Below are positions 7,701 to 64,000 of a stretch of 64,000 bases of DNA, in pieces. Under the pieces are notes generated by a model. That model was not told where the DNA came from. It saw only the letters and a list, made by a program, of their open reading frames with translations, and made no database searches. How positions within the stretch are numbered: position 1 is the stretch's first letter; every line of letters starts with the position of its first letter. The position numbers and the translations under genes were made by a program. This stretch comes from Antedon mediterranea (taxonomy: Eukaryota; Animalia; Echinodermata). The stretch spans positions 6,154,422 to 6,218,421 of the forward strand of contig NC_092678.1 of NCBI RefSeq assembly GCF_964355755.1, in the 5' to 3' direction.

Positions 7701-7781
7701 TATTGTTTATTATTAATAATAAAATTAATACAACATAGTGTTATTCAGTAATTAATAAAAAGTTTTATTAAGTCTACTTAC

Positions 7782-7970
7782 CAGTTCACCTGTAGCTATT
7801 TCCCTTGCTAACTTTACTTTGCCGTAAGTCCCTTTACCAAGTGTCCTTAAGAATTCAAAACGATGTCTTAGCCTTTGCCTATGCCGAGAAGATTTTGTCC
7901 TAGTTGAGTTATCAACATTTGTGTGGCCTAATAGACCATGTCCATCTAACATTGTATCAAAAGTAGGCAT
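7782..7970 (-). CDS. NUAK1: NUAK family (SNF1/AMPK-related) kinase, first coding exon; gene continues left of the window
   Basis: MPTF...[35 protein letters not shown] matches the NUAK N-terminus ([17 protein letters not shown]); 63 codons end at a phase-0 GTAAGT donor (7776-7781). Confidence 0.88.
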
Positions 7971-14200: not shown

Positions 14201-14359
14201 TTTTTCCCAGGCAGTTGGTTTACAAATTATAACCAAGCATGGTCTACCAATGAAACAAACTAACAAACACAAAAAAACAAACTTATATACAAACAAATAA
14301 CAATGAACTACCACAAACAAAAAGAAAACACAAATAAAGAAACAAACTTAATTATGACA

Positions 14360-18091: not shown

Positions 18092-19255
18092 CTATACACT
18101 CTGCTCCACATTAGGCCTACTTGTTACATCGTTGCTCGTACTATTGCCAACGGAAAGTTGTTTATTTCTCCTAATTTGAAGGTATTTGGTGCTTATAATT
18201 GCTAAAATAATGATAAACACACAAAATAAGATTGACCGAATTAACAATATTGATTTTGAGTTCAGATCATTTTCCCTGCTGATGCTAGATGTAGGTAAAC
18301 CAGTCTTTGCAATATCTGGATGAACAAGATCTGTGACGTCAACATTCAGTATCGTCGTATCTGAACCCTCTGAATATTCACCTCTAGCGGTGCACTTTAC
18401 TAGTGTGCCGTTTAAACCAATAGTTACATTGTGTATGATTAAACTGTTACTTTTGTTAACCATGTCAATTTTCGGGAACGATTCCCAGATGTACTCAACT
18501 TGCGTAATGTTATTAGTGTCTGGTAGAGAACAATTTAAAACAGCGTCTTCGCCTTCAATCAGATTGTCTAATGTTAAAGAAACATTCAAACGACTTTTTA
18601 CTAATACATTGACTGCGCAAGTATACGTTCGATATCGCACTAAGAAAGAGCAAGTGTACCGCCACATCATAGCCTTTTCATTGCCTGTAATATGGAATTC
18701 TCTTTCAATTACTGTATTATTACCTGAAATTTTATATGTATACTTCATCTCTTCCGATTTCAACGAATGTTGGAATTGAAGATCTGGATAGGAAAACATT
18801 TGGCATTGTACAGTAACAGTACAATCACCAATACAGTAATCTTTGTCAGATGAGCACTGTGGTGAAGAATATGGATACACAGTCACGTTGAAGCTGGATT
18901 CCAGTACAACATTGTCATGACGAGTGACGAGAATGCTGTACAAACCTCTGTCAGAAATCGTCACATTGGTTATTATTATATAAATGTATAATCTTTCAGA
19001 ATCCAAAGTATACGTCTTATTAGAAATGGAGATACGATTGTCATCTACTGGTTGATTATTCTTCTTCAGCTGATAATGTTTTACACAATCGTTACATCTG
19101 ACAACATAACATTCAGCTCTCAGCGTATCGCCAGCAATGTAGTAATCGTATAACGACCTGTAACAACGAATATCTGATTGCTGTGCTGACATATAACTTA
19201 CATCAAAGAAGATGAAAATGAACACTGCTACAACACAGGTGGTTACAGACTCCAT
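18092..19255 (-). CDS. Ig-superfamily type-I membrane protein, paralog 1 (387 aa, single coding exon, intact)
   Basis: ATG at 19255 is homologous to the other paralog starts; signal peptide; D1 with DRGLYS; Cys-rich D2; C2-like D3 (LNC..W..LIIHNVT...NGT.VKC.A); TM; short basic tail. Confidence 0.88.
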   Translation of the reverse strand: MESVTTCVVAVFIFIFFDVSYMSAQQSDIRCYRSLYDYYIAGDTLRAECYVVRCNDCVKHYQLKKNNQPVDDNRISISNKTYTLDSERLYIYIIITNVTISDRGLYSILVTRHDNVVLESSFNVTVYPYSSPQCSSDKDYCIGDCTVTVQCQMFSYPDLQFQHSLKSEEMKYTYKISGNNTVIEREFHITGNEKAMMWRYTCSFLVRYRTYTCAVNVLVKSRLNVSLTLDNLIEGEDAVLNCSLPDTNNITQVEYIWESFPKIDMVNKSNSLIIHNVTIGLNGTLVKCTARGEYSEGSDTTILNVDVTDLVHPDIAKTGLPTSSISRENDLNSKSILLIRSILFCVFIIILAIISTKYLQIRRNKQLSVGNSTSNDVTSRPNVEQSV

Positions 19256-19807
19256 AGTACTTTGGAACACAAAATATGCTCTGTACAATCACTGCTCAAT
19301 GCTTGTGAACATCAATTGTAAAACTCTCGGAAAACAATTCGTGCTTGCATTTTTACAGTAGGCCTAATTAATCCTTAGACCATCATTTTTAGTTTCATAT
19401 GCGAGTTTTTATTTTTCTTTCGTCGCGAGTTTATTGATTTGTTTCAATTTAGGCACCACAAAAATTACAGAAAAAATACAAAACAATACAAAGTAAACAA
19501 AATGATAACAATTATCAAAAGCGAACTTAATCACTGTTTGAAGACTAAATGTATTTAACATTAAGTGATGGCGCTAGTTACACTCCGTTATGCGTGATTA
19601 ATTAGTATGACGTAATGCATACGCGGTATGAGTACTCGGGGGTTCATTGAGGGTATGGGAGACCAGTAAATCCATTGTAGCAAGCAAGATATGTTGTAAA
19701 TAGAGTACGAATGAATTTAGTTGATTAGCTTTATTTGTTACTTGTCTTAACAATACAATTCAGGGCTAGATAACTTTCCTTTAAACTTTGGATCACATTT
19801 TCTGTAA

Positions 19808-20500
19808 TTTTTTTTTTTTTTTTTTTTTTTTTTATTGAACACTTTCATATTTAAATTTAAAAAATAGCTTAAAATAATAACACTTTCTTATTAATAGTAA
19901 TACACAATATACATTTCTCTTAAGAACAAAATATAAATAATTTCACAATGTAATAAATATAAATCTATTTTTTCTTTTCTCTTAAAAACAAAGTCTATAA
20001 ATAATTTGTTGTCAATTTTTTCTTTTTAAGCATATTTCCACTAAAGAATAATTTAATTAAACATAAAACTTTCTTATTCAAATAAATAGTTATTACTTAC
20101 TAAATAAACAGATGATAAAAGTTCTATAAATTCAAGATTAAAAAAAACATTATATGAAAACAGTGCTTTTATTGAACACTTTCATATTTCAATTTAAAAA
20201 ATAGCTTAAAATAATAACACCTTTTAAATAATAATAATATATAATATACATTTCTCTTAAGAACAAACTATAAATAATTTCATGATGTAATAAATATAAA
20301 TCTACTTTTTCTTTTTTCTTAAAAACAAAGTCTATAAATAATTTGTTGTCAATTTTTTCTTTTATAACATATTTCAACTAAATAATTTAATTAAACATAA
20401 AACTTTCTTATTCAAATAAATAGTTTAACTTACTAAATAAACAGATCATAAAAGTCTATAAATAATTCAGGATTAAAAAACATAATATAACAAACAGTAC
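19808..20500 (-). repeat. Poly(T) run plus tandem duplication 2 x ~340 bp, possibly the 3' end of a retroelement
   Basis: ttttattgaacactttcatattt.aatttaaaaaatagc at ~19830 and ~20167; minus strand ends in aataaa + poly(A). Confidence 0.6.
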
Positions 20501-21736
20501 TAAGTCCTTTTTTTTAATGCAAAGTTAATTTTCTGTAACTTGTTCCAACTATTACCTCACACAACATTTGTTTTAGTGTTCATAGATATTTAGTTCAAGA
20601 TTAACAAAACATGACTTTTCTACACTCAAACCGCAATAAAAAATACTCTAGATTTTTCCTAAACTGCATTTAAATTTGGAATTCCTTTCCAGTATCTTTT
20701 AAAGAACATTAATTAACTTTTAAATTAAACCTAAAGATCATTTTAGAATTATCATATACAAGTGCATTAAACACAGTCATCCTTGGTGATTTAAAAAAAA
20801 ATGTTTTGCATTTTAAAATATAAAATATTTTTTATGACACCATGGAAACTAATTCTTACTAAGGAGACATATCTATGTATATATTGTAATAATTCGAAAA
20901 AAAAAACAAACAACAAAAGTGCAAACACGATTTTTTTTAAATAGACCACAAAGACAAATTAATTACTGAAAACAGTTTAGCAAGTTGATGGCATATAATT
21001 AGAGAATTATGGGATAGTGATTACTATAGGATTATGGGAAATTGCTTACTATAAGATTATGAAATATTGTTTACTATAGGATTATGGGATTTTGTTTCTA
21101 GTTTTCTGATGGCATACCGTATTTAATTGATTGCGGAATTGTTCAAGATCTCTTTTAAACATTGATTACGATACTACATATTAACAGACATGCAATCATT
21201 ACTGTACTAACATTTTACATAAATCAATCTTCTTTTGCTTTGTATATTGTGAACTGTCTTATAAAAACATGTAAATTAGAAGCAGTTTCGAAATATATAT
21301 TATTATACACTTTCTATTGATAGATAAACATTTCTAACGCAAATAAAAAACTAACTAGTTCTTTATACAACTTGTTTAATTATCATCTATAGTCCCATTA
21401 TTACAGTTATAAAAAGTTACATAATAAGGACAAAAATATAATAATTACGTCATAGTCTTATTAGTCTATTTGGGCCAATGTTCATCAATGCCTTTCCTTT
21501 TACTGATCTTGTTTGTCAATTCCATTTACCATAATCCATCTTGTCATTGTCCACCTTTTTTCCTTAAACTTCCCTTCATGACACTTCGTTCAAGTTGTTT
21601 CGCTCTAGTGCTCGAAGTATTTACCTTATATTTCCTGATTGTTGGCGTCTTCTCGTCTATTTACATTTGTTACATTGTCTCTGTATATTATAACAGCATT
21701 GTATTAAACGATGTGCAATGTATTTACGGCTCATTG

Positions 21737-22860
21737 TCAGTCTTTTATACAGATGATACATTCGTTCTTCGTATTGTTGCCAGTAGAATGTTTTTTCTTT
21801 CGAATGCATTTTGTGATTACAATTACCAACATAATGATAAACACACATAATATAATCGACCGAATCAATAATATTAATTTTGATGGAAATTCTCTGCTAA
21901 TCGTTAAGATTTCTTGATGAACGTGATCAATATCTGTGACGTCAACATTCAGTAACGTCGTATCGGAACCCTCTGAATATTCACCTCTAGCGGTACACTT
22001 TACTTCTGTCCCCCGTTTAAACCAATAGTTACATTGCGTATGATTAACCTGTTACTTTTGTTAACCGTATCCATTTTCGGGAACGATTCCCAGATGTACT
22101 CAACTTGCGTAATGTTATTAGTGTTTGGAAGAGAGCAGTTTAAAACCGCATCGTCGCCTTCAATCAGATTGTCTGCTGTTAAAGAAACATTTAAACGACT
22201 TTTTACTAATATGTTGACTTCACATGCACACCATTTATTTCGCACTTCGAAAAAACACATGTTTTGCCACATCGTACCCTTTTCAAGGCCTGTAATTGGG
22301 AATTCTCTTTCAATTACTGTATTATTACCTGAAATCTTATATGTATACCCTATATCTTTCAACGAATTATGGAATTGAAGATCTGGATACGAAAAGATTT
22401 GGCATTGTACAGTGACATTACAATCACCAATACAATAATCTTTGTCAGATGAGCACTGTGGTGAAGAATATGGATACACAGTCACGTTGAAGCTGGATTC
22501 CTCGATAGCACTATCATTACGAGTGACGAGAATGCTGTACAAACCACTGTCAGAAATCGTCACATTGGTTATTGTTATATCAATGTATAATGTTTCATTA
22601 TCCCAAGGATACGTTTTATTAGAAATGGAGATACGATTGTCATCTACTGGTTGATTATTCTTCTTCAGCTGATAATGTTTTACACAATCGTTACATCTGT
22701 CAACATAACATTCAGTTCTCAGCGTATCACCAGCAATGTAGTAACGGTAATACGACCAGTAGTTGTAACAAAGAATATCTGATTGCTGTGCTGACATATA
22801 ACTTACATCAAAGAAGATGAAAATGAACACTGCTACAACAGAAGTGGCTACAGACTTCAT
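21737..22860 (-). pseudogene. Ig membrane protein paralog 2, frameshifted (286-aa ORF 22000-22860 lacking TM)
   Basis: C5 run at 22010-22014 versus C3 in paralogs 5 and 6 (+2 nt); the corrected frame continues TEVKCTARGEYSEG..LLIRSIILCVFIIMLVIVITK.. to TGA at 21737. Confidence 0.8.
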
Positions 22861-23130
22861 AGTGCTTTACAAACACACAATATGCTGTGTACAATGTATC
22901 GCTGTTCAATGCTTGTGATGTCAATCCCCGAACTGTTGGTAATAAATAGTTCGTGTCTGCAGCTTCACAGTTATTGCTCAATAATAATTGTTAGTTTCAT
23001 GTCAAGATGTTTATTTTGCTTTCGTCTCAGGTTTTTATGTGGCAAAATGAAATAATTGATAAAATATAAAATGAAGGGGAAAAACCTAATCACTTTAAAG
23101 TATAGATGCAATAGACGATGGAAATATATA

Positions 23131-23845
23131 AAACAAGGCCATATAGATGGCTGCAGTCGCGTGCTCATTAGTGTTTACCGACCGACCGACCAACCAACCT
23201 ACCAACTGACCGAAATTACTGAACATGTTTAAAAATGTTGAAATGTTTAAAAACATTTATATTTTTTTAATTTACACGTGCGTAGCCTGTCACTTTTGAC
23301 GTGCTCGTATAACGTAATTTCGAGTTGAAAAGTCAAGAAAACAGAAATCGGGCAAAAAGAGTGCGCAATAACATATAACGCGCAGTGCGCGCGCAAAAAT
23401 CTGCGCACTCATGGCAATTTTGTAAACGCTTAAAATTGCCTGAAACGTACTCTTATTTCATTGAAAATAAATTAAAAAAATTTAAAGCGCGCGTACGCAT
23501 GTGTTACATGCGCTACGCACGTAATTGTATTGCCATATGATGATTTATGCCCTGAAATTTATGAGTACCAAATTTTATTTAATTCATGGTTGTGAAGATA
23601 TGATTACAAACGTGATTTCGTTAAATCGTGCGTAGACCGCGTAATTTTTTATTGCGCACCATGAAAACATAACCACATCGATTCCTGGCCATAAGGAATA
23701 TACTGTGAAAAATTGACTTAGCTAGATTAAACTGATATCAAGATAAGGTCAGAAAGCGATAAAACGCATAGTGATACCGGACCGACAGGATGACCGACCA
23801 ACCGACCGACATAGTGAACTATAGAGTCGCGTCCACGCGACTAAT
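23131..23845 (-). mobile_element. Non-autonomous Helentron/HINE element upstream of paralog 2
   Basis: SubTIR agtcgcgtg (23155-23163) / cacgcgact (23834-23842), terminal hairpins, (ccga/ccaa)n tracts; internal similarity to the 3135-4737 element; empty paralogous site at ~29560-29590. Confidence 0.8.
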
Positions 23846-24635
23846 AACGAATGGATATAGACACGAAGACAATGACTGGAAGCTGTTTGATGGTGTATTT
23901 AGAGGATTCTGGGATAGTGCTTTGTAAGATAATAATTCTTCAAACATTAATACGGTACTCATGTATCTGAGTAAACTGACAAACACGGTCTCATAAATCA
24001 ATATATTGTAATTATTTGCAAATGTATTATACACTTTCCATTCTACTGACAATAAAAACCACGATAATAAAAGAAGCTATTCCTCGATTCATGAAGCGTA
24101 TCGATAGGCTATTATCACCTAAGACAAAATTGTAAATGTAAAGTTTCAATAATATTCCATTATCCAAACATCATTCAAACATTATCGACAATAAATAACA
24201 GGCCATTCTATTTTAGTAGTTTAGTTTACTTGAATCCATGTCAACCAATGACGTCTGATGCCTTCCTGTATGTACCCCCATCCATATCAGGAAAAAGCGA
24301 GATGTTCTGGTTCCATCATTTTTAAAGATACGTTATCCTTGTATTTCTTCTTTTTTTCTTCATTCAACTTCTTTCATGACATTCTTTGAAGTTGGTTGGC
24401 TGTTATGAGCTCGAAATATTAGCATTTTCATTTCATTGGCATCTTCTTTTAAATCACTCTTCAATTCATTTGTTATTCTGTATGATATATTTAGCATTCT
24501 TTTACATATCTACATTAATATTACAACTGACACGATGTGCAATTTATCCCTACAGTTCTATAACAGCAGAGGCTGTGTCATTGCTACTATTGCCATTGGA
24601 ATGTCCTTTCTTTCGAATCTGAATGTGTTTTGTGA

Positions 24636-25673
24636 TTAATATTCCCAACATAATGATAAACTAAACACACATACTATAATCGATCGAATCAATATTAATT
24701 TTACGGAAAATTCTCTGCTAATCGTTAAGATTTCTTGATGAACTTGATCAACCTCCGTGACGTCAACATTCAGTATCGTCGTATCTGAACCCTCTGAATA
24801 TTCACCTCTGGCGGTGCACTTCACTACTGTTCCGTTTAAACCAATAGTTACATTTCTTATGATTAAAATGTTACTTGTGTTAACCGTATCCATTTTCGGG
24901 AACGATTCCCAGATGTACTCAACTTGCGTAATGTTATCGGTGTCTGGTAGAGTACAATTTAAAACCGCACCTTCGCATTCAATCAAATTTTCTGATGTTA
25001 AAGAAACCTTCAAACGACTTTTTACTAATACATTGACTTCACAAGTATACGTTCGATCGTGCACTTTGAAAGAGCACGTGTACCGCCACATCATCATCTT
25101 TTCAAGGCCTGTAATATGGAATTTTCTTTCAATTCTTGTATTATTACCTGAAATTTTATATGTATACTTCATTTCTTCCGATGTCAACGAAGGTTGGAAT
25201 TGAAGATCTGGATACGAAAACATTTGGCATTGTACAGTAACAGTACAGTCACCAATACAGTAATCTTCGTCAGATGAGCATTTTGGTGCAGGCTGTGGCA
25301 AAACAGTCACGTTAAAGCTAGATTCCTCAAAAACATTATCATGACGAGTGACGAGAATGCTATACACACCACTGTCAGAAACCCTTACAGTTGTTGTTAC
25401 TATTTTTAATGTTTCAGAATCCGAAGACGTTCTATTAGAAATGCTGATACGATTGTCATCTACTGATTGATTATTCTTCTTCAACTGATATTGTTTTACA
25501 CAATCGTAACATCTGCTAACATAACATACAGCTGTCAGCGTTTGACCAACAATGTAGTAGTCAACGAAATAATAGTGATGACAACGAACATTTTGTTGAT
25601 GTTCCGACATACAACTTACATCGAAGAAGATACAAATGAACACTGCTACAACGCAAGTGATGACAGACTTCAT
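24636..25673 (-). CDS. Ig membrane protein paralog 3 (345 aa); frameshift in the TM region removes the tail (possible pseudogene)
   Basis: Complete ectodomain; 5-bp duplication taaac at ~24657-24666 relative to paralog 5; the corrected frame reads FIIMLGILITKHIQIRKK..SAVIEL* (stop 24550). Confidence 0.8.
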   Translation of the reverse strand: MKSVITCVVAVFICIFFDVSCMSEHQQNVRCHHYYFVDYYIVGQTLTAVCYVSRCYDCVKQYQLKKNNQSVDDNRISISNRTSSDSETLKIVTTTVRVSDSGVYSILVTRHDNVFEESSFNVTVLPQPAPKCSSDEDYCIGDCTVTVQCQMFSYPDLQFQPSLTSEEMKYTYKISGNNTRIERKFHITGLEKMMMWRYTCSFKVHDRTYTCEVNVLVKSRLKVSLTSENLIECEGAVLNCTLPDTDNITQVEYIWESFPKMDTVNTSNILIIRNVTIGLNGTVVKCTARGEYSEGSDTTILNVDVTEVDQVHQEILTISREFSVKLILIRSIIVCVFSLSLCWEY

Positions 25674-26138
25674 AGTGCTTTGGTCACATAATATTATGCT
25701 GAGTGTACAATTTATCGCTGATCAATGCTTCGGAAAATCAATTCTCAAACTGTCAGCAATAAACAATTAGTGCCTGTTGCTTGAATTGTTGTTGATAATT
25801 AAATATTGTTTCATTTTCAAGTTTTAATCTTTCTTTGTTGCGGGGTTTTTATGTGGCAAAATGACATAATTGATTAACACAAAGTGAAGAGGAAAACATA
25901 CAACGTAAAGATGCAAAAAAAGATACAAATATAAAATAAATAATGGCTATAATAGACACGAAGAAATGACTGGAAGCTGTTTCTAATTGATGGCGTATTT
26001 AGAGTTTTATGAGATAATGTTTTGGAATAACATAAATAGATACAGTCTATTTATATATATATTCTATTTATTATAAACTTTCTATTGATAGATAAACATG
26101 TCTAACTTGCTAACGAAAATAATAAAAATAAAGTGGGC

Positions 26139-26760
26139 AGTTATTACAAAGTACAACAGCAGTTTATACAAAGCGAGACAATTATTACAAAGTGCGACAA
26201 GTTATTAGTGCGAAAGCAGGTTTTACAAAGTGTGACAATCATTAAAGTGCGACAATTATTACAAAGTGAGACAAGTTATTACAAAGTGTGACAAGTTATT
26301 AGTGCGACAGCAGTTTTTACAAAGTGCGACAATTATTACAAAGTGAAACAAGTTATTACAAAGTGTGACAAGTTATTAGTGCGACAGCAGTTTTTACAAA
26401 GTGCGACAATTATTACAAAGTGAGACAAGTTATTACAAAGTACAACAGCAGTTATTACAAAACGAGACAATTATTACAAAGTGAGACAAGTTATTATAAA
26501 GTGAGACAAGTTATTACAAAGTGAGACAGCAGTTATTACAAAGTGAGACAAATGATTACAAAGTGAGACAAGTTATTACAAAGTGCGACAGCAGTTATTA
26601 CGAAGTAAGATAAGTTATTACAACGTGAGACAGCAGTTATTACAAAGTGAGACAGCAGTTATTACAAAATGAGACAAGTTATTACAAAGTTAGACAGTAC
26701 AGTAGTTATTACAAAGTGAGACAAGTTATTACAAAGTTAGACGATTTTTACAGTGCGACA
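26139..26760. repeat. Minisatellite, 20-23-bp unit agttattacaaagtgagaca(gc)
   Basis: More than 25 adjacent degenerate copies. Confidence 0.95.
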
Positions 26761-27405
26761 GACAGTAAATAAAGGTTAAATTGTTCATCAATATATACAT
26801 ACAGTGTAGTAACATTTTCATAAATAAAATTTAAGATCATATCCATGTTCTAATTATTCTTATTGTTTACGTTGTATTGTGAGTTGTGACCATAATGCAA
26901 ATTGGAATCGGTTTCGAATTCTAGTGTAACCTGCTTAAATAAACATCTTTCCACAACTATTTACTTCTACATTGGAATATGAAATATAAACCTGACTATA
27001 ACCAATAACCAATTAAAATTCGTTAGACGTTTGCCCTACTCTGACGTAATAATTCTACTTAATACTAAGTAGGTTACATATGAGAACTGATGACTAGAGC
27101 GTAGATTCGAGCTTATAGGAAGCATAGGGTACTGCACCAACAAGGTGATAATTGTATAACTACTGTTTTACCAAGTAGCTAAGTTAAGTCACACTTTTTG
27201 GACATGCATTTAAAATGATGAATTGTGGTAATTCAATCACAAGATGGTGAGATGAATATCTCTATGTTTTAATTTATGTTGCTGTCTTTTTTTATACTTT
27301 GGTTCTGTTTTTATTTATACGTGACGATAAAGCGATAAAATAAAAAAAGAAACAGTCTTATTACATCAGGAGCCTACAACTGACACGATTTGATAGCTCT
27401 CCTTT

Positions 27406-29304
27406 TCAGGTCTCCAATACATTCAGTTCTATAGCAGAGGTTGTCTCGTTGTTTGCATTGTTGCCGTCGGAGGGTGTTTTCTTCCTAATTAGAAAGTATT
27501 TGGAGATTATAATTGCCAAAATAATGATGAAAACACAAAATATGATCGACCGAATCAACAATGTTGATTTTAAGTGCGTACTATCTTCTCTGCTAACGTT
27601 GTCTATAGGTACTTTATTAGGCATCGTTGTGATATCTTCCTGAATCTGCTCAAGAACCGTGACGTCAACGTGCAATACATCTTCCTGAACTTTATCAAGA
27701 TCTGTGACATTTAGTATTGTCGTATCTTCTTTGCTAATTTTGGATATCGGTATACGCGTCGTTGCGATATCTTCCTGAACAGTGACTTGATCAAGATCTG
27801 TGACGTCAACATTCAGTATCGCCGTATCTTCTTTGCTAATGTTGGATATCGGTATACGCGTCGTTGCGATATCTTCCTGAACAGTGACTTGATCAAGATC
27901 TGTGACGTCAACATTCAGTTTCGTCGTATCTTCTTTGCTAATGTTGGATATCGGTATACGCGTCGTTGCGATATCTTCCTGAACAGTGACTTGATCAAGA
28001 TCTGTGACATTAACATTCAGTTTCGTCGTATCTTCTTTGCTAATGTTGGATATCGGTATACGCGTCATTGCGATATCTTCCTGAACAGTGACTTGATCAA
28101 ATTTAGTGACGTCAACATTCAATATCGTCGTATCTTCACTGCTAATGTTGGATATCGGTATACTCGTCGTTGCGACATCAAGATCAACTCGATCAAGATC
28201 AATGACATCCATGTGCATTACATCGTTCTGAACAGTGCCTTGATCAAGATCAGTGACGTCAACATTTAGTATCTTAATATCTTCAATGTTGGGTGAAGAT
28301 ATAAGCGTCGTTGCGACATCAAGATGAACTTGATCAAGATCAGTGACGTCAATGTCCAGTACATCTTCCTGAACTTGATCAACCTCAATGACGTCAACAT
28401 TGAGTACCGTCGTATCTGAACCCTCTGAATATCCAACTCTAGCGGTGCACTTTACTACTGTTCCGTTTAAACCAATAGTTACATTGCGTATGGTTAATAA
28501 GTTTCTTTCGATAACCATGTCAATTTTTGGGAATGATTCCCATATGTACTTAACTTGAGTGACGCCATTATTTGGTAGAGAACAATTTACTACGGCGTCA
28601 TCGCCAGCAATCAGATTTGCTGACAGTAAAGCCACATTCAAACGACTTTTTCTCAATACATTGACTACGCAAGTATATGTTTCAGATTGGACTTTGAAAA
28701 AACACATGTACCGCTACATCATACCTTTTTCAAGGTTTGTAATACGCAACTTTCTTTCAATTCTTGCATTATTACGAGAAATGTTAAAAGTAGTATACTT
28801 TCTCCTTCTCGATTTTAACAAATCCTGGATTTCAAGATCTGGATACGAAAAGATTTGGCATTGTACAGTAACAGTACAGTCACCAAAGCAGTAATATTTG
28901 TTAGATGAGCACTGTGGTGTAGGTTGTGGCAAAACGCTAACGGTCAATGGTCTAGATTCCTCCATACTATTGTCATGACCAGTGATGACAATGCTGTACG
29001 AACCACTGTCAGAACTCCTCAAATTGGTTATTGTTATATCAATTACTTCAGAATGCCAACGAGACGTTTCATTAGAAATTCGAATATGATTACCATCTAC
29101 TGGTTGATTATTCTTCTTCAACTGATAATCTTTCACACAAAAGTTACATCTGCTAACATGACATACAGCTGTCAGCGTTTGGCCAACAAAGTAGTAATCA
29201 TTTACAGGATAATGATGACAATGAACATTTTGTTCCGACATACAACTTACATCGAAGAAGATACAAATGAACACTGCTACAACACAGGTGTATACAAACT
29301 TCAT
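27406..29304 (-). pseudogene. Ig membrane protein paralog 4 with in-frame TAG (Trp codon) and expanded repeat stalk (632 codons if read through)
   Basis: ORFs 28714-29304 and 27406-28707 are in the same frame; GMM*RYMC versus MMWRYTC in paralogs. Confidence 0.85.
27690..28190 (-). repeat. Coding tandem repeat, 102 bp / 34 aa, ~5 copies
   Basis: gatatcttcctgaac at 27766, 27868, 27970, 28072; unit LNVDVTDLDQVTVQEDIATTRIPISNISKEDTTK. Confidence 0.95.
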
Positions 29305-30347
29305 AGTGCTTTACACATATAATATGCTGTGTCCGATCTAGTCGCTGATCAATGCTTCTGAAAATCAATTCTCAAACTGTCGGCAATAAACAGTTCATGC
29401 CTGTTGCTTGAATTATTATTGATCAATAAATATTGTTTGTTTCGTTTTGAGGTATTTATCTTTCTTTGTTGTGGGGGATTTTATGTAGCAAAATAAAATA
29501 ATTGATTAACATAAAGGGAAGGGGAAAACATACAACGTAAAGATGCAATAAAGGATGCAAATATAAAATAACGAATGGCTATAATAGACACGAAGAAATG
29601 ACTGGAAGCTGTTTCTAATTGGTGGCGTATAAAGAGGATTCTGGGATAGTGTTTTGGAATAACATTAATCGATACAGTCTATTTTAAGGATCTGAGAAAA
29701 CGTCTCATAAAAACAATATTTTGTAATCATTTTCAAGTTTATTATACACTTTCTAACCAAACATCTCGGCATCATTTCTTTGAATTAAAAAAAACCGCGA
29801 TCAATAAAACAAGTATTTCCTCATAAAGTAAATCAGACAAACCTGGTTATTACAGTTATAATTTCAACAGTTTCCACATTACCTGGTTATTGTAGTTACA
29901 AAAAGTATCATTAATATTCCATAAAGTAAAACAATTTCCAAAATAATTCTATTTTAGTAGTTTAGTTGGTTCCATGTTCATTAAAGACGCATGATTCCAT
30001 GATCTTATTGTCCACTCAGGAAGGAGCGAGATTCTCTGGTTCCATCATATTTTTAATGCTATATTGTCCTTGTGTTTCCTCTTTTTCTCTTCCTTCAGCT
30101 TTCTATTCCATAATATTCTTTGTAGTTGGTTGGTTCTTATGGGACGACATATTAATATTTTCCTTTTTTGTTTTAATTGGAATCTTCCTTTAAATCACTT
30201 TTCAGGTATATTGTTACATTGTCCCTGTATATTTTTAGCATCCTTTTTAATAATTATCATTAATATATGATGTGGACAATTTATATTTGGCTCATTTGCA
30301 ACCCTCCCCACACCGATACATCCAGTTCTATAGCAGCAGAGGCTATG

Positions 30348-31445
30348 TCATTTCTTACTATTGCCATTGCAATGACTTTTCTTTCGAATCTGAATGTGTT
30401 TTGTGATTAATATTCCCAACATAATGATAAACACACATACTACAATCGATCGAATCAATATTAATTTTAAGGGAAATTCTCGGCTAACCGTTAAGATGTC
30501 TTCCTGAACTTGATTAAGATCTGTGACGTCAACATTCAGTGTCGTCGTATCTGAACCCTCTGAATATTCACCTCTAGCGGTACACTTTACTTGTGTCCCG
30601 TTTAAACCAATATTTACATTGTGTATGATTAAATTGTTACTTTTGTTAATCATGTCAATTTTCGGGAATGATTCCCATATATATTCAACCTGAGTGACGT
30701 CATTGTTGCTCGATAGAAAACAATTAAAAACTGCGTCTTCGCCTTCAATCAGATTGTCCGATGTTAAAGAAACATTCAAACGACTTTTTACTAATACATT
30801 TACTGCGCAGGTATACCATTTGGATTGAACTTTGAAAAAACACGTATACCGCCACATCATAGCCTTTTCATTGCCTGTAATACGGAATTCTTTTTCAATT
30901 CTTGTATTATTACTTGACATTTTATATGTATACTTTATCTCTTCCGATGTCAACGAATTTTGGAATTGAAGATCTGGATAGGAAAACATTTGGCATTGTA
31001 CAGTGACAGTACAGTCACCAATACAGTAATCTTTGCCAGACGAACACTGTGGTGTAGGTTGTGGAAAAACGATGACGTTAACGATAGATTCCTGTACAAC
31101 ATTATCATGACGAGTGACGAGAATGCTGTACACACCACTGTCAGAAATCGTCACATTGGCTATTGTTATATAAATGTTTAATGTTTCAGAATCCCAAGTA
31201 GACGTTTGATTAGAAATGGAGATACGATTGTCATCTACTGGTTGATTATTCTTCCTCCACTGATAATGTTTTGCACAATAGTTACATCTGTAAACATAAC
31301 ATGTAGCTCTCAACGTATCGCCAGCAATGTAGTAATCATTAAGAGTGGCGTAACAATGAACATCTGGTTGCTGCGCCAAAATATAACTTACGTCAAAGAA
31401 AAAGAACACGAACACTGCTACAACACAAGTGGCTACAGACTTCAT
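30348..31445 (-). CDS. Ig membrane protein paralog 5 (365 aa, intact through TM, very short tail)
   Basis: Signal peptide, 3 Ig-like domains, TM; a +1 nt shift near the end replaces the NDxASAxIEL motif of other paralogs with KK*. Confidence 0.88.
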   Translation of the reverse strand: MKSVATCVVAVFVFFFFDVSYILAQQPDVHCYATLNDYYIAGDTLRATCYVYRCNYCAKHYQWRKNNQPVDDNRISISNQTSTWDSETLNIYITIANVTISDSGVYSILVTRHDNVVQESIVNVIVFPQPTPQCSSGKDYCIGDCTVTVQCQMFSYPDLQFQNSLTSEEIKYTYKMSSNNTRIEKEFRITGNEKAMMWRYTCFFKVQSKWYTCAVNVLVKSRLNVSLTSDNLIEGEDAVFNCFLSSNNDVTQVEYIWESFPKIDMINKSNNLIIHNVNIGLNGTQVKCTARGEYSEGSDTTTLNVDVTDLNQVQEDILTVSREFPLKLILIRSIVVCVFIIMLGILITKHIQIRKKSHCNGNSKK

Positions 31446-31935
31446 AGTGCTTAAGACATATAATATATGGGGTGTACAATTTATCGCTGCTCAATGCTTG
31501 TGAATATAAATTCTAAAACTGTCGACAACAAATTATAGTTCGTGTATCTTTACAGGTGATCATCAGATAAAATACTGCTACTTTCACGGATTAGTTTTGT
31601 TCGCGTGCGACATGACTGTTCAATATGAAAGGTCCTATCATATCAAAAAATCGTCTCACGCGATATTGATATATATTGATAACTTCCATAAAAAAAGGTC
31701 AGGGAAGAGCGAGATTTTCTGGTCGTATTTGTAAAGCTATGTTGTCGTTGTTTTCGCTCGTTTCTCTTCCTTCAACTTTCTCTTCCGTGTTCATTCTTTG
31801 AAGTTTGTCGTTTTCATTGGCGTCTTCTTTTAAATCACTCTTCAGTTCATTTGTTACATTGATATATTTAGCATTATTTTTAATATACATTAATATTACA
31901 ACTGACACCATGTGAAAAGTATCTACGTCCCGGGG

Positions 31936-33132
31936 TCAGTCCTCTCTATCCGATGATGCATTAAGTTGTACAGCAGAAGCTGTGTCGTTGCCAATAGAAT
32001 GCTTTTTCTTTCGGATGTATTTTGTGATTAAAATTCCCAACATTATGATAAAAACACAAAATATGATCGATCGAATTAACAATATTGATGTTGAGTACAT
32101 ATCATCTTGTCGGCTAATATTGGATATGGAATGCGTCGTTGCAATGTTTTCCTGAACTTGATCAAGATCAAGATCCGTGACGTCAACGGGCAGTACATCT
32201 TGCTGAACTTGATCAAGATCTGTGACGTCAACATTCAGTATCGTCGTATCTGAACCCTCCGAATATTCACCTCTGGCGGTGCACTTTACTTCTGTCCCGT
32301 TTAAACCAATAGTTACATTGCGTATGATTAAACTGTTACTTTTGTTAATCATGTCAAATTTCGGGAACGATTCCCAGATGTACTCAACTTGAGTGACGTC
32401 ATTTTTTGGCAGAGAACAATTTAAAACTGCATCATTCCCCTCAATCACATTTACTGAAGTTAAAGAAACATTTAATCGACTTTTTACAAACACATCAACT
32501 GCGCAAGTATACATTTCAGATTTCACTTCCAATTTACACAAGTACTTAACCACCCTTTGATCATGATCTGTAATACGAAATTGTCTTTCAAATATCACAT
32601 TATTATCTGAAATTGTAAAATTATACTCGCTCTCTTGCCGAGTCGACCAATGTTGGAAAAGAAGATCTGGATAGGAAAAGATTTGGCATTGTACAGTGAC
32701 ACTGCAATCACCAATGCAATAATCTTTGTCAGACGAGCACTGTGCTGCAGGTTGTGGCAAAACGCTAATGTTAAAGGGTAGAGATTCCACTATATCATTA
32801 TCTTTACGTATGATGAGAATGCTGTACAAACCACTATCAGAAATTCTCAAATTGGTTATTGATATTTCAAATTGAAATTGCCAATCAACGGTTTCTTGAG
32901 AAATGCGGATACGATTGTCATCTACTGGTTGATTATTCTTCTTTAACTGATAATTTCTTACACAATAGTAACAACTGTAAACATAACATCCAGTGGTCAG
33001 CGTTTGTCCAACAAAGTAGTAATCATCGGGAGGATAGTAGTAACAATAAGGATTTAGCTGCTGTGCTGACATATAACTTACATCAAAGAAGAAAATGAAC
33101 ACTGCTACAACACAGGTGGTTACAGACCTCAT
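31936..33132 (-). CDS. Ig membrane protein paralog 6 (398 aa, intact)
   Basis: ATG at 33132 (MRSVTTC); same architecture; its TGA is followed by an in-frame open extension to 31699. Confidence 0.88.
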   Translation of the reverse strand: MRSVTTCVVAVFIFFFDVSYMSAQQLNPYCYYYPPDDYYFVGQTLTTGCYVYSCYYCVRNYQLKKNNQPVDDNRIRISQETVDWQFQFEISITNLRISDSGLYSILIIRKDNDIVESLPFNISVLPQPAAQCSSDKDYCIGDCSVTVQCQIFSYPDLLFQHWSTRQESEYNFTISDNNVIFERQFRITDHDQRVVKYLCKLEVKSEMYTCAVDVFVKSRLNVSLTSVNVIEGNDAVLNCSLPKNDVTQVEYIWESFPKFDMINKSNSLIIRNVTIGLNGTEVKCTARGEYSEGSDTTILNVDVTDLDQVQQDVLPVDVTDLDLDQVQENIATTHSISNISRQDDMYSTSILLIRSIIFCVFIIMLGILITKYIRKKKHSIGNDTASAVQLNASSDRED

Positions 33133-34019
33133 AGTGCTTGTAATATGGTGTGTTTTATCACTGCTCAATTCTTATAAACATCAATTCTCAAAACTGCCGA
33201 CAAAGTTCGTGTCTGAATTCTCAGGAATATTGATAATAATTCATTATTGTTAGTTTCGAGTATCAGGGTTTTTATTTTGTTTACGTTGTGACAAAATGGA
33301 AAAACTAATTTTTAAAATACAAAATGAAGGAAAAATATCCGCACACACTTGAAGGTGCAATCAAAGATGGAAACACTTAAACACTGATTTACACGAAGAC
33401 AAATGAATATGACTTAAACTATTAAATGTAAGGTCTAAAGGATTCTGGGATAGTGTTTTGTAAGGTAATTAAGTCTTCACACATTAATACATCAGTATTG
33501 CATCTGAGTAAACTGTCTCATAAAAACAATGTATTGGAATCAGTTTTGAACTTCATTATAAATCGTCTACTGCATAATTCTTAACTGCGAACAATAAAAG
33601 TAACCATTTCCTCAAAGCGTAAAGTTATTTTTAAAGTTAAAAAAAGTTACATTAATATTCTAAAAAGTTATCGACCATAAGTAACAGCTTATTCTATTTA
33701 GTAGTTTAGTTGGTTCCATTTACATCATTGTCGTCTAATGCCATGACCGCATCTTCTTATTGTTCGTATTGTTCAAGGAAGAGTGAGAATCTCAGGTTCC
33801 ATCATTATTTTCTAGCAACGTTCTATCTCCTTGTTCTTCCTCATTCCTTCATATTTCTCTTCCGTAATCATTCTTTTGAGTTGGTTGGAGCTTGTGTACA
33901 CAAAATATTGATATTCCTTTGATTTTTATTGGCGTCTTCTTTTTATTTACATGTTTGTATCTTGTCTCTACAATCTTTAGCATTTTCTAAATATTGCATC
34001 CAGGGCTCATTTTCAGCCG

Positions 34020-35231
34020 TCATGCATTCAGTTCTACAGCAGAGGTTGTGTCGTTTGTATTATTGCTAGCGGAAAGTGCTTTCTTCTTAATGCAAAGGTA
34101 TTTGCTGATTATAAATGCCAAAATAATAAACACACAAAATATGATTGAACGAATAAAAAATATTGATCTTGAGTTAACATAATTCTCCCTGCTAATTTTG
34201 GTAGTAGGTAAACCAACCGCTGAGACATTAGGATGAACTTCATCAAGATCCGTGACGTCAACGGGAAGTGTATCTTCCTGAACTTGATTAAGATCTGTGA
34301 CGCCAACATTCAGTATCGTCGTATCTGAACCCTCTGAATATTCACCTCTAGCGGTGCAATTTACTTCTGTTCCGTTTAAACCATTAGTTACATTGCGTAT
34401 GGTTAAACTGTTACTTTTGTTAATCATGTCAATTTTCGGGAATGATTCCCATATATATTCAACCCGAGTGACGTCATTGTTGCTCGATAGAGAACAATTA
34501 AAAACTGCGTCTTCGCCTTCAATCAGATTGTCCGATGTTAAAGAAACATTCAAACGACTTTTTACTAATACATTTACTGCGCAGGTATACCATTTGGATT
34601 GAACTTTGAAAAAACACGTATACCGCCACATCATAGCCTTTTCATTGCCTGTAATACGGAATTCTTTTTCAATTCTTGTATTATTACCTGAAATTTTATA
34701 TGTATACTTTATCTCTTCCGTTTTCAACGAATTTTGGAATTGAAGATCTGGGTACGAAAACATTTGGCATTGTACAGTGACAGTACAATCACCAATACAG
34801 TAATCTTTGTCAGACGAACACTGTGGTGTAGGTTGTGGAAAAACGATGACGTTAACGATAGATTCCTGTACAACATTATCATGACGAGTGACGAGAATGC
34901 TGTACACACCACTGTCAGAAATCGTCACATTGGCTATTGTTATATAAATGTTTAATGTTTCAGAATCCCAAGTAGTCGTTTGATTAGAAATGGAGATACG
35001 ATTGTCATCTACTGGTTGATTATTCTTCCTCCACTGATAATTTTTTACACAATCGTCACATCTGTCAACATAACATCTACCTTTTATCGTATCACCGGCA
35101 ATATAGAAACCACTGGGATGCCCCCAGTTGTAGGCGTAACAACGAATATCTGGTTGCTGCGCCGAAATATAACTTGCATCAAAGAAGATGAAAATGAACA
35201 CTGTTACAACACAGGTGGCTACAGACTTCAT
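34020..35231 (-). CDS. Ig membrane protein paralog 7 (403 aa, intact)
   Basis: Same architecture; D1 retains the C-strand Trp (YQWRK) and DSGVYS. Confidence 0.88.
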   Translation of the reverse strand: MKSVATCVVTVFIFIFFDASYISAQQPDIRCYAYNWGHPSGFYIAGDTIKGRCYVDRCDDCVKNYQWRKNNQPVDDNRISISNQTTTWDSETLNIYITIANVTISDSGVYSILVTRHDNVVQESIVNVIVFPQPTPQCSSDKDYCIGDCTVTVQCQMFSYPDLQFQNSLKTEEIKYTYKISGNNTRIEKEFRITGNEKAMMWRYTCFFKVQSKWYTCAVNVLVKSRLNVSLTSDNLIEGEDAVFNCSLSSNNDVTRVEYIWESFPKIDMINKSNSLTIRNVTNGLNGTEVNCTARGEYSEGSDTTILNVGVTDLNQVQEDTLPVDVTDLDEVHPNVSAVGLPTTKISRENYVNSRSIFFIRSIIFCVFIILAFIISKYLCIKKKALSASNNTNDTTSAVELNA

Positions 35232-39772: not shown

Positions 39773-39877
39773 AAAGAAAGGCCATATACATGGCTGCAGT
39801 CGCGTGCTCAAGTTAGTGTTTACCGACCAACCGACCGACATAGTGAGCTGTAGAGTCGCGTTGCACGCGACTAAAAA
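39773..39877 (-). mobile_element. Minimal (~100 bp) deletion derivative of the 23131-23845 HINE family
   Basis: aggccatatacatggctgcagtcgcgtgctc..ccgaccgacatagtgagctgtagagtcgcgttgcacgcgact: both termini joined at the ccga tract. Confidence 0.8.
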
Positions 39878-40246: not shown

Positions 40247-42903
40247 TTAGCAAATCAGTGAGAAACACGGAGATTTGGTTTTCTTCTTCAGCTTGTCGAC
40301 AATGTAATAAATAGTCGGTCTTTGCTCTGGAATAATACGTGTACACTTTCTGCCGAGTTTACATAGAGGTATCATATTTAGACATAATCCCATGTCCAGA
40401 AACACATATCCGAGGCTTTAAATGTCACATTTAAATGTCGGCGGTGAATTCGGATAAAAGAGTTCTGGTGCGTAGCCTCTATGAGCTGCCATGAGTTCTT
40501 TGCGTTCCTCTGCAAGAGTTTCGTTAATTTTAAAGTAATCGTAGGAAGCATCAGCATGGCAGATGGAACCGAAGTCTGTGATCTTTACCGACCAGCAGTT
40601 ACCATCGTGGTAAAGAAGCATATTCCTGCTGGCGATGTCGTTATGAATAAAGCCGTGGTTTTGCAGTATCTGGACGCCTTCTGCCATATCGAGTGCAAGA
40701 TGCAGTCCATCTCGAATAGTAAGCTGAGGATTCTTGTATTTGATGGCTTTAAGGAACGTGACTAATTTATACTGTGTTGGATATCCAACGTATTCCATAA
40801 TTATCCTGCTTCTGAGTTCGACAGAAGTGTCACTACAGATTCCGTACACGTAAGGGAACAGTCTGCTTCTTCTTGACAGGAACTTCAGGACACGAGCTTC
40901 AATCTCAATTTCAAATTTTTCCATAAATTGCTCTTGTTTGTTTTCTGAGAGGAAGCAGGACTTGACGGCCACAAGAGGGCCATCAGGATGATTCAGCCGC
41001 TTTAGGAACACTTCACCAAATGCCTTTCCAAGTTTGATCTATAACATTTTCATAGATTATCCCCTAATTTATTTTGCTTTTAATACGCATCCTACAGCGA
41101 TTAACACGCCAATTACAGGATGGATAAACTATTTTATAAGTTCTAAGTCTCATTTGAGGCTTAGGAAGTGTTGAGTGTTGAAAGAGTGATGAGTTACAAC
41201 CCTGGCACTAAGTGAACCCTTGACATTGGGATTGGAAGGCAAGCACGTTAACCACCAAGCTACAGCTCCACTACCAATAATTTAATACTTTTAATTTGAA
41301 TGATATTGATCTATTTGATGATAGATTTTAGATATGTATGTATTAAATAACAATACATTCGCTCTGTTATAATCTTGTAACGAATGTTTTGGAAATATTG
41401 TAGACAATTAAAAAGACAATTACCGGGTTGTTCATGTTGACCACTGGGTACAAGTTGTCCACAGATATTTCTGGAACGTCCTTTGGCAAGAGTTTTTCGA
41501 GCTTCAAGAGCTCACAAGGCAACGTGAATTTGACGGGTTTTTCAAATGAACTGAAAAGCTGAGACGATATGGCCAATACTGGTTGGTCTGTTAGAGCAAG
41601 TGCCTAAAGGAGGATGAAATTGTATTTGATTTTATCAATATTGTCGAATACTGATGTACACAAATGCTGCAGTAAAACTCCGACTCTAATAGTGAAAAAA
41701 TTTGATGGGCAATACAATGTTTCAACACTAAACGGTTGCCATACAACCTCTATTTAGGGACACTCCTATTTAAAGGACACATTGCTGGGTCCCGAAGTTG
41801 TCGCCTCAATTTGTGTTTTATCTGTATGTTTAATATGGATTATGGGTATATACCTCAGCTTCATTGGGTTTAATAGCCAGATGAATCGGTGTCATTGGTG
41901 CAATGAGAGGGCTTGAAGTTACATCATTACAAGGCTGCGAATATAAATAAAACTTAATTAATATTCAACGATCTCATATTCTTGGACAATATATTATAAA
42001 TACTGAAAAACTATTGACAATTGATGGAAGACACGATACCTCAATTGATTTGGTCTTTGAACTGAATCCAGTAAGTGGCAATTTGAACAAATCAGAGATG
42101 CCGAAAAGTCCAGTAAGACCTTGATACCACGTTGCTAGACTGGTGAACAATTGTGAAATCAATAAGCTGTCGACACCAGAGTTAAAACGAGCCTTCTAGA
42201 CAACTCTTGAGTGGATGCTACCAACTTCTAGTCTTGACATCGTGTCAGAAAATTGACCTTTGACATCTGAGGCTTCCTTCAAGGGTGGTAAACAATGAAT
42301 TCTATCCATCGAAAAGAGGCTTCTGATGAGATTCAGTGCTGCCATGTATTCTGATTCCACGTCATTGTCAATGACCTCTGCTTCTGCATCATTGACCTCA
42401 ACACAACTGTTATCCAGCACAAGGAGTGCTCTTGTGTATTCCTGAAGCCTGACACCAATCTCTGGGTCCGAGCAAGTGATGGCATCTGGTCGAAGAGGAT
42501 CAATGGCAATACCGTAAATGATCTTCAACATAATCACACGGGCATGGGATGTAAGTCTTATCCAGACTTTACTGGATGAAGTTGGCTGCTGGTCAACATC
42601 CTCGGCATTCTCATGTCTTTCGAAAGTAAAACAACACTTGAAGTATTTGTCGAATAACTTCGAGAAGATAGAGTGCCTAATAATAAAAGGTCCAAAAACA
42701 ATTAAATAAAATATCTATTGTGTGTAGCGCATTTGAATGATGTGTATTCGTAAAAAAAAAAGCGCTATAGAAATGAGATATTTATTGAGATATATATAAT
42801 AATATATATCATATGAAATAATAACAAAGCGTACAAACCTTTTTTGACCTATTTTAGTAACAGTACGGTTACGTTTAAATAGACGTTTAATCCGTCCTGG
42901 CAT
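40247..42903 (-). pseudogene. Five-exon protein kinase gene (non-RD, TK/TKL-like) with two premature stops
   Basis: Coding exons 42839-42903, 42040-42676, 41854-41934, 41424-41603, 40247-41038, all GT-AG and phase-compatible (584 codons). Motifs LGKAFGEV, VAVK, HNDIASRN, DFG, APE, DI*SLG, PEQRP. TAG at 42196-42198 and TAA at 40418-40420. Confidence 0.82.
41160..41270 (-). mobile_element. tRNA-derived SINE fragment in the kinase intron
   Basis: Minus strand tgtagcttggtggttaacgtgcttgccttccaatcc..agggttca (A/B-box-like). Confidence 0.45.
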
Positions 42904-63930: not shown

Positions 63931-64000
63931 CTTTGTAATAAAACACACAAATATTTTATAAATATTTAATTTCATATACAGTACATATATTTCATACAAT

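What the first reader, a model, noticed from the sequence alone, without database searches (positions are those of the whole stretch)
18092..35231. Tandem array of seven intronless, rapidly diversifying three-Ig-domain membrane receptors: candidate undescribed invertebrate immune or allorecognition locus
Seen: seven head-to-tail paralogs in 17 kb, each with signal peptide, D1-D2-D3, stalk, TM and short tail encoded in one exon. Four are intact and three are lesioned. Divergence concentrates at the membrane-distal tip. I do not recognise a named family. Known: tandem Ig receptor clusters with birth-and-death turnover and distal variability typify recognition systems (vertebrate KIR/LILR/CEACAM, Hydractinia Alr, amphioxus VCBP). 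Inference: a lineage-specific pathogen, self/non-self or gamete recognition family lying between conserved NUAK and LRRK2-like genes.
Basis: partly seen in the sequence, partly recalled or inferred. Interest (0 to 1): 0.88.

Follow-up and report, generated by a model that had tools for sequence, protein, structure and literature searches.

The report
Feather-star diversifying Ig receptor cluster
A feather star carries seven side-by-side copies (four intact, three broken) of a cell-surface gene with three antibody-like domains, whose outermost domain shows positive selection, which makes it a likely but untested system for recognising microbes or foreign cells.

Summary
The array is real: seven minus-strand copies at 18092-35231, each a continuous frame for signal peptide, three Ig-like domains, stalk, membrane helix and short tail. 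Four are intact; two have frameshifts, one a premature stop. The neighbouring NUAK exon is 100% identical to Antedon mediterranea, so the host is a feather star (crinoid). No close homologue was found; the only full-length relative is a crinoid nectin/CADM-like protein (25% identity). dN/dS falls from domain 1 (1.05) to domain 3 (0.36). A site model finds positive selection in domain 1 only (LRT 22.2), which survives removal of indel loops, intact-only analysis and a gene-conversion simulation (0 of 100). Copies are mosaics, and public contigs hold a tip variant absent from the window. New details: domain 1 lacks the F-strand cysteine, and all seven membrane helices carry an invariant arginine with no conserved tail motif, as in adaptor-coupled activating receptors (recalled). 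Best reading (0.4): likely non-self, probably microbe-binding, receptors. Main rival (0.25): isoform-specific self-binding as in sDscam/Alr. Expression, ligand and partner are untested. It is not a member of Alr, VCBP, CEACAM or sDscam on the features I could test.

The parts
18092..19255 (-). Copy c1, intact, 387 aa: signal peptide, D1-D2-D3, stalk, membrane helix with Arg (18236-18238), short tail
21737..22860 (-). Copy c2, frameshift (two extra bases, G run 22010-22014) in D3; stop at 22000-22002; membrane and tail remnant in another frame
   Evidence: frameshift not checked against reads
23131..23843 (.). Very high-copy repeat inserted between c2 and c3; contigs of runs X2 and X7 join across it
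24636..25673 (-). Copy c3, whole ectodomain intact, 5-base duplication (24657-24666) breaks the membrane helix; 5' flank closest to c4 (87%), 3' part closest to c5 and c6 (81%, 79%)
27406..29304 (-). Copy c4, premature TAG at 28714-28716 in D2; stalk expanded by a 102-base repeat (4.6 copies, 27707-28179)
   Evidence: the stop lies inside a 405-base contig of run X1 with 0 differences
30348..31445 (-). Copy c5, intact, 365 aa; tail cut short by one extra base; 93-99% identical to c7 from about codon 51 on but 82-83% over the first 75 codons
31936..33132 (-). Copy c6, intact, 398 aa, the most divergent intact copy
34020..35231 (-). Copy c7, intact, 403 aa; D1 residues 25-131 (34833-35159) with invariant Cys 31, 53, 58, 61 and Ile in place of the F-strand Cys
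7776..7970 (-). Flank: first coding exon of NUAK, 100% identical to an Antedon mediterranea protein, 81% to Anneissia japonica
40250..42714 (-). Flank: broken kinase gene with two in-frame stops, between the array and the LRRK2-like exons
55749..63999 (-). Flank: LRRK2-like exons (LRRK2 beta-propeller E 1.4e-8; kinase exon E 2e-7)

Best explanation
This is a tandem family of seven crinoid three-Ig membrane-protein genes, likely derived from a nectin/CADM-like ancestor, whose outer domain is under positive selection and likely binds a variable non-self, probably microbial, ligand. Domains 2-3 and the stalk would act as a conserved glycosylated spacer. Unequal crossing-over and gene conversion likely shuffle tips among copies and create or kill copies. 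With no conserved signalling motif in the short tail, the invariant arginine inside the membrane helix would recruit a separate signalling partner, as in vertebrate activating receptors. Shown: array, lesions, Ig fold of D1, selection, mosaicism, the arginine. Inferred: ancestry, expression, ligand, partner, immune role.
For: dN/dS 1.05 (0.72-1.56) in D1, 0.62 in D2, 0.36 (0.23-0.58) in D3. M2a vs M1a: D1 LRT 22.2, p=1.5e-5, 18% of sites at omega 4.1; D2 2.3 and D3 2.5, not significant. Still significant without all indel-bearing loops (10.2, p=0.006), in the 4 intact copies alone (12.1, p=0.002) and in each half of D1 on its own tree (22.8; 10.0); 0 of 100 no-selection simulations with conversion tracts reached 22.2. 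Tip loops vary more than base loops (p=0.0008). c5/c7 share a 195-base identical tract (0 of 5000 permutations); 5' flank, D1 and membrane/tail partitions reject each other's trees (AU p<0.003). A domain-1 tip variant absent from the window is in contigs of the same species label (X1) and of organism B (X5). Arg at position 5-6 of the best 21-residue helix in the 6 copies with a whole helix and present in 7 of 7, with three synonymous codons; absent from the crinoid relative P0035. The same evolutionary pattern is pathogen-driven in primate CEACAMs (PMC8860441, abstract seen). Arg-dependent pairing with the FcR-gamma adaptor in LILRA, NKp46, GPVI and Fc-alpha-RI is recalled, from no call.
Against: Ligand, cell type and partner are unknown. 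None of the four intact proteins is in the protein collection (4 of 4 absent), so annotation gives no support for expression. Selected sites include the residue before the B-strand Cys (52) and outer E-strand residues (94, 96, 98), the self-binding face of sDscam Ig1, whereas CEACAM diversification is on the CC'C''FG face (PMC5112662 passages). FcR-gamma/DAP12-type adaptors are, by recall, vertebrate; no echinoderm partner was identified. The Arg could simply sit near the outer membrane surface. Only seven paralogues, my own codon-model code, naive empirical Bayes; 11 of 100 null simulations passed the nominal 5% level, so the weaker control tests (LRT 6-12) are less secure (4 of 100 reached 10.2). 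The c2 tip loop is identical over 19 bases in organism B, which fits stable specificities better than a fast arms race.
Confidence: 0.4

Rival explanations
1. Isoform-specific self-recognition: each D1 binds its own kind across cells through the ABED face (as sDscam Ig1 and Dscam1 Ig7 do, and functionally like Hydractinia Alr), giving a code for self/non-self tissue or neuronal self-avoidance.
For: Site 52, just before the B-strand Cys, is selected in 5 of 5 tests that span it (posterior 0.94-0.98 in those listed) and; sites 80, 94, 96, 98 in the D1 second-half test. In sDscam that residue contacts its counterpart and outer E-strand residues vary most while the CFG face is conserved (PMC10154414 passages). 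Likely ancestor is of the nectin/CADM adhesion type. Alr I-set domains also lack the canonical disulfide and have a predicted A-B bridge (PMC9546547 passages). Sea stars show allorecognition (PMC9763293, abstract start and passages).
Against: ABED against GFC outer residues is not significant (mean pairwise difference 0.54-0.58 against 0.38-0.39, p 0.11-0.23, faces assigned by hand). Selected sites also occur on the F strand, FG loop and G strand (109, 121, 122, 125). No conserved splice donor after the membrane helix, so no cassette-plus-constant-exon design. Only four intact genes here, few for a neuronal code. Two copies carry Glu at site 52, awkward on a two-fold axis (inference).
Confidence: 0.25
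2. A former adhesion molecule that microbes or parasites use as an entry point; copies diversify to escape, and the truncated ones (c3, whole ectodomain without anchor) act as shed decoys. No signalling role.
For: Same selection and conversion evidence. c3 keeps an intact ectodomain. Precedent in CEACAMs (abstract).
Against: Does not explain the invariant, family-specific membrane Arg. Private changes in c3 D3 are 5 nonsynonymous to 2 synonymous, compatible with decay.
Confidence: 0.13
3. A retrocopy-derived, mostly silent array that is decaying; high dN/dS in D1 reflects relaxed constraint.
For: 3 of 7 copies broken, a fourth with a shortened tail; neighbouring kinase also broken; no annotated protein; pooled D1 ratio does not differ from 1.
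Against: D3 at 0.36, signal peptide at 0.39, invariant cysteines and Arg, a site class well above 1 that holds in intact copies; pieces of c5- and c6-like coding sequence persist in organism B at about 3.5-5% divergence with indels mostly in multiples of three bases.
Confidence: 0.12
4. Gamete or larval recognition proteins diversifying by sexual conflict or species recognition.
For: Positive selection on a membrane-distal Ig domain and single-exon structure are common in reproductive proteins (recalled).
Against: A tip variant and the c2 loop are shared between organisms A and B, the opposite of species-specific divergence.
Confidence: 0.08

Closest known systems
Nectin/CADM-like three-Ig receptors; nearest sequence XP_071944688 'cell adhesion molecule 3-like' of Antedon mediterranea (P0035)
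   Same: Signal peptide, three Ig domains, one membrane helix; colinear alignment over about 365 residues, E 4e-17 pairwise; best of 89 fetched proteins against the array profile, 42.2 bits against 24.0; P0035 itself resembles CADM, nectin and Kirrel clusters.
   Different: 25% identity; array D1 lacks the F-strand Cys and has three extra Cys; membrane Arg; tail about 17-31 residues against about 95; tandem and under positive selection.
Vertebrate CEACAM cluster
   Same: Tandem Ig receptors, N-domain under positive selection, gene conversion; weak sequence and fold matches of D1 to CEACAM N-domains.
   Different: CEACAM domains lie on separate exons and diversify on the CC'C''FG face, with ITIM/ITAM paired receptors; none seen here; matches are no better than to NCAM, titin or PDGFR.
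Hydractinia Alr family
   Same: Clustered single-pass Ig genes with pseudogenes and non-canonical disulfides.
   Different: Alr: one exon per domain, an Fn3-like spacer, ITAM/ITIM tails in many; here one frame, repeat-prone stalk, no such tails; no sequence link found.
Chelicerate sDscam
   Same: Tandem variable first Ig domain; variation at the B-strand pre-Cys site and outer E strand.
   Different: sDscam cassettes have two or four exons and use alternative promoters plus splicing; here each copy is a whole gene with its own stop.
Amphioxus VCBP
   Same: Clustered deuterostome Ig genes with haplotype and copy-number variation (PMC2632668, abstract).
   Different: [quoted passage not shown]
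Activating LILRA / NKp46 / GPVI / Fc-alpha-RI receptors (recalled)
   Same: Short tail plus an Arg near the outer end of the membrane helix.
   Different: Vertebrate, multi-exon, C2-type domains, known FcR-gamma partner; no homology shown here.

Membership tests
Immunoglobulin superfamily | D1 has an Ig beta-sandwich | tested here: met
   Pfam Ig hits in 7 of 7; Z 12.5, rmsd 2.0, 95 aligned, top 50 rows Z 10.8-12.5 nearly all Ig-domain chains
Immunoglobulin superfamily | D2 and D3 are Ig domains | tested here: inconclusive
   D3: Pfam Ig_2 best stretch in 5 of 7, TrkA E 4e-4. D2: no Pfam hit; neuroplastin E 7e-4 across D2-D3 (profile included P0035); model pLDDT 42, best Z 6.9, rmsd 2.8, 84 aligned
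Immunoglobulin superfamily | Canonical B-F disulfide in D1 | tested here: not met
   D-x-G-x-Y-x-I in 7 of 7; invariant Cys 31, 53, 58, 61. Their pairing is not shown
Nectin/CADM-like receptors | Three-Ig, single-pass architecture with colinear homology | tested here: met
Nectin/CADM-like receptors | Orthology to a named member (tree or synteny) | not testable with these tools
   no genome held; one relative only, 25% identity
Nectin/CADM-like receptors | Conserved cytoplasmic scaffold-binding tail (recalled) | tested here: not met
   tails 17-31 residues from the first Lys, ends differ among the four intact copies
Hydractinia Alr | One exon per domain and an Fn3-like spacer | tested here: not met
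   continuous frames; stalk is short or made of repeats; definition
Hydractinia Alr | Controls fusion or rejection; allele-specific trans binding | not testable with these tools
   needs cell assays and crosses
CEACAM | Separate N-domain exon and ITIM/ITAM paired receptors | tested here: not met
   single frame; only a Yxx(I) at the inner membrane edge in 3 of 7, no ITAM; definition
sDscam / clustered protocadherin type | Variable cassettes spliced to shared constant exons | tested here: not met
   each copy has its own helix, tail and stop; a donor-like site after the helix in 1 of 7 only; no transcripts to confirm
sDscam / clustered protocadherin type | Variable ABED face, conserved CFG face in D1 | tested here: inconclusive
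   trend in that direction, p 0.11-0.23; selected sites on both faces
VCBP | Two V domains plus chitin-binding domain | tested here: not met
   architecture read from the sequence is three domains, stalk, membrane helix
Adaptor-coupled activating Ig receptors (LILRA type) | Basic residue in the membrane helix and short tail | tested here: met
   the family definition is recalled
Adaptor-coupled activating Ig receptors (LILRA type) | Association with an ITAM adaptor | not testable with these tools
   no genome or partner sequence available

The most novel reading that the evidence does not exclude
This is an echinoderm self/non-self locus: haplotype-variable, single-exon Ig receptors that read identity through a Dscam-like ABED face and signal through a membrane arginine to an unknown adaptor, an independent invertebrate invention of the activating-receptor design and a candidate gene set for echinoderm allorecognition.
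Probability: 0.2. Interest if true: 0.9.

Novelty: new variant of a known kind. Interest (0 to 1): 0.63.

Why it matters
Crinoids are the earliest-branching living echinoderms (recalled) and their immune and self-recognition genes are barely described. A compact, apparently unannotated cluster with tested positive selection, tip shuffling and extra variants gives four short single-frame genes that can be expressed and assayed directly for self-binding against microbe-binding. If the membrane arginine recruits an adaptor, the activating-receptor logic of vertebrate innate cells would have an invertebrate deuterostome parallel. If the binding is isoform-specific, it would be a molecular handle on echinoderm allorecognition.

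Tried and rejected
No whole genome is held, so genome-wide copy number and synteny were not tested. Close homologues: 0 of 1523 and 0 of 3135 candidates at E<=0.01 (lengths about 107-706 aa only); of 82 hits in the representative library most are long multi-repeat proteins matching only residues about 98-150; of the 12 I looked up, one is crinoid, four are animal multi-Ig proteins and seven are bacterial or unnamed metagenome proteins. Metagenome scan: 1 weak locus of 231 pattern matches, 29% over 63 residues, not pursued. Expression: no RNA holder listed; run X9 is only guessed to be RNA and covers scattered pieces; no conclusion either way. One X9 contig joins the c2 5' part to the c1 3' part, but the join follows a 52-base stretch identical in both copies, so an assembly chimera cannot be excluded. 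D1 homodimer prediction: no answer, score 0.00. D2-D3 fold: low confidence. Atlas search of D2 alone could not be run. ABED against GFC test not significant. Cassette splicing to shared exons rejected for want of a conserved donor. Rfam: 0 matches. Second-haplotype cover of 31243-34333 is not seen in X1 at 90% likeness, but contigs show presence, not absence. The intact-only part crashed and was redone as site models. A sea-urchin immune-repertoire paper I wanted was not held, so earlier descriptions of echinoderm V-type Ig genes in subscription journals were not seen; no supplements were read.
Full report
Observation. Stop-to-stop ORFs under the standard code show long minus-strand frames repeated across 18092-35264. 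tblastn with the last copy finds seven copies and no more in the window. Start codons lie 1.7-3.6 kb apart. Four frames are intact (c1 387, c5 365, c6 398, c7 403 aa). c2 has two extra bases in domain 3, c3 a five-base duplication in the membrane helix, c4 a premature TAG in domain 2 and a stalk expanded by 102-base repeats. The c4 stop lies in a 405-base contig of run X1 with no difference from the window; that run may be the source sample, so this argues against a consensus error only. The c2 and c3 lesions were not checked against reads. c5 has one extra base that cuts its tail short.

Host and flanks. The NUAK first exon (7776-7970) is 100% identical to an Antedon mediterranea protein and 81% to Anneissia japonica (2 hits of 29 candidates), so the host is a feather star of, or very near, that species. 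LRRK2-like exons lie at 55.7-64 kb, but a kinase gene with two in-frame stops sits between them and the array.

Domains. Pfam places Ig families on domain 1 in 7 of 7 copies and Ig_2 on domain 3 in 5 of 7; domain 2 has no hit. The AlphaFold model is usable only for domain 1 (block pLDDT 54-75), which matches Ig folds (best Z 12.5, rmsd 2.0, 95 aligned; no family stands out). Domain 1 has Ile where the F-strand Cys belongs and four invariant Cys (31, 53, 58, 61); an A-B bridge and a bridge in the BC loop are my inference. Domains 2-3 are supported weakly, by a profile match across both to neuroplastin (E 7e-4), a low-confidence model and alignment to the relative below.

Relatives. Word-based searches found nothing (0 of 1523, 0 of 3135), and 4 of 4 intact proteins are absent from the collection. 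Of 82 hits among 1.84 billion representatives, one spans all three domains: XP_071944688, 'cell adhesion molecule 3-like' of A. mediterranea, 25% identical over about 400 columns and best of 89 proteins against the array profile. Its own look-alikes are CADM, nectin and Kirrel clusters; the Atlas gives copy 7 generic Ig adhesion clusters and one unnamed echinoderm cluster (score 0.93). The array likely derives from this kind of receptor; orthology is not shown.

Selection. Pooled dN/dS is 0.39 (signal), 1.05 (D1), 0.62 (D2), 0.36 (D3). With my own codon-model code, M2a beats M1a in D1 (LRT 22.2, p=1.5e-5; 18% of sites, omega 4.1) but not in D2 or D3. The result holds with free branch lengths (22.4), without all indel-bearing loops (10.2), in intact copies alone (12.1; 6.3 without residues 33-41) and in both halves of D1. 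Simulating no positive selection with four conversion tracts gave 0 of 100 at 22.2, 4 of 100 at 10.2 and 11 of 100 at the nominal 5% level: the main result is safe, the weaker ones less so. Tip loops vary more than base loops (p=0.0008); the ABED face varies more than the GFC face but not significantly (p 0.11-0.23) (faces assigned by hand).

Shuffling and variation. c5 and c7 share a 195-base identical tract (best of 21 pairs, 0 of 5000 permutations) and are 93-99% identical from about codon 51 on, but 82-83% over the first 75 codons: the tip escapes homogenisation. 5' flank, D1 and membrane/tail trees reject one another; c3 has a c4-like front and a c5/c6-like back. Public contigs add a domain-1 tip variant that is absent from the window yet present in X1 (organism A) and X5 (organism B); the other two variants I checked are simply c1 and c2. 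In both runs of sample S1, contigs over 31243-34333 match the window exactly at about half the depth of flanking contigs (X1 17-21 against 36-38; X2 141-154 against 256-363). This hints that only one haplotype carries the c5-front, c6, c7-back block, as a crossover in the c5/c7 tract would give, but contig depth is not a copy number. Unexplained: several full-depth contigs in those runs differ from the window by 1-3%. Organisms B (X5, X7; one study) and C (X8) hold pieces of several copies, so the array predates these splits.

Membrane and tail. All seven copies have I-R-S-I at the outer end of the helix; the Arg falls at position 5-6 of the best 21-residue window in the six copies with a whole helix, uses three synonymous codons, and is absent from the crinoid relative. 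Tails are 17-31 residues, with no ITAM and only a Yxx(I) at the membrane edge in 3 of 7. Short tail plus membrane Arg is the signature of FcR-gamma-coupled activating receptors (recalled, no paper read).

Mechanism. Best reading (0.4): likely non-self receptors whose domain 1 binds a changing, probably microbial ligand and which would signal through a partner bound at the Arg. Main rival (0.25): isoform-specific self-binding; the selected site before the B-strand Cys and the outer E-strand sites are those that set specificity in sDscam Ig1 (PMC10154414, passages), while Xenopus CEACAMs diversify on the opposite face (PMC5112662, passages). Lesser rivals: escape/decoy without signalling (0.13), decay (0.12), gamete recognition (0.08).

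Comparison and novelty. It works like CEACAM, Alr, VCBP or sDscam clusters but fails their structural membership tests (PMC8860441 abstract; PMC9546547 passages; PMC2632668 abstract). Ten literature searches (listings and abstract starts) and term look-ups in four more papers (PMC11999971, PMC9763293, PMC4172062, PMC13337447; passages) showed no description of this crinoid family; most subscription papers are outside the library. Earlier scan notes hold nothing on this locus and one unchecked note on a different sea-urchin Ig-pseudokinase cluster. Verdict: real, apparently undescribed, a new variant of a known kind; interest 0.63.

Noticed in passing
window 40250-42714, minus strand: Multi-exon kinase gene (Pfam PK_Tyr_Ser-Thr E 2.6e-17) with two in-frame stops and an N-terminal part without Pfam match; probably a pseudogene.
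   Followed up: partly
window 23131-23843: Very high-copy repeat inserted between c2 and c3; contigs of X2 and X7 skip it; short related pieces at 39767-39887.
   Followed up: partly
codon 19 of each copy, e.g. window about 19196-19201 (c1): A consensus splice donor GTAAGT lies in the signal peptide of 6 of 7 copies (GCAAGT in c7); may be only Val-Ser codons; no transcripts to test.
   Followed up: partly
window 27707-28254: c4 stalk grown by 102-base (34-residue) repeats derived from the end of D3 and the stalk; c6 and c7 carry one short duplication of the same unit.
   Followed up: partly
window 32088-32932: c6-like contigs in organism B have 2-4 times the depth of other copies' contigs (X5 100-130 against 28-55; X7 242 against 72-127), a hint of amplification.
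   Followed up: no
window 22215-22229: c2 in the window has three substitutions, one creating an extra Cys, where run X2 shows the other letters (two of them also in X7 and X8); c2 may be less decayed on other haplotypes.
   Followed up: partly
window 14359-15367, 26139-26742, 51177-51627: Minisatellite arrays (about 117, 20 and 17 bases).
   Followed up: no
window 35471-36010, minus strand: 180-codon stop-free frame just upstream of c7 with no Pfam match; probably chance.
   Followed up: partly
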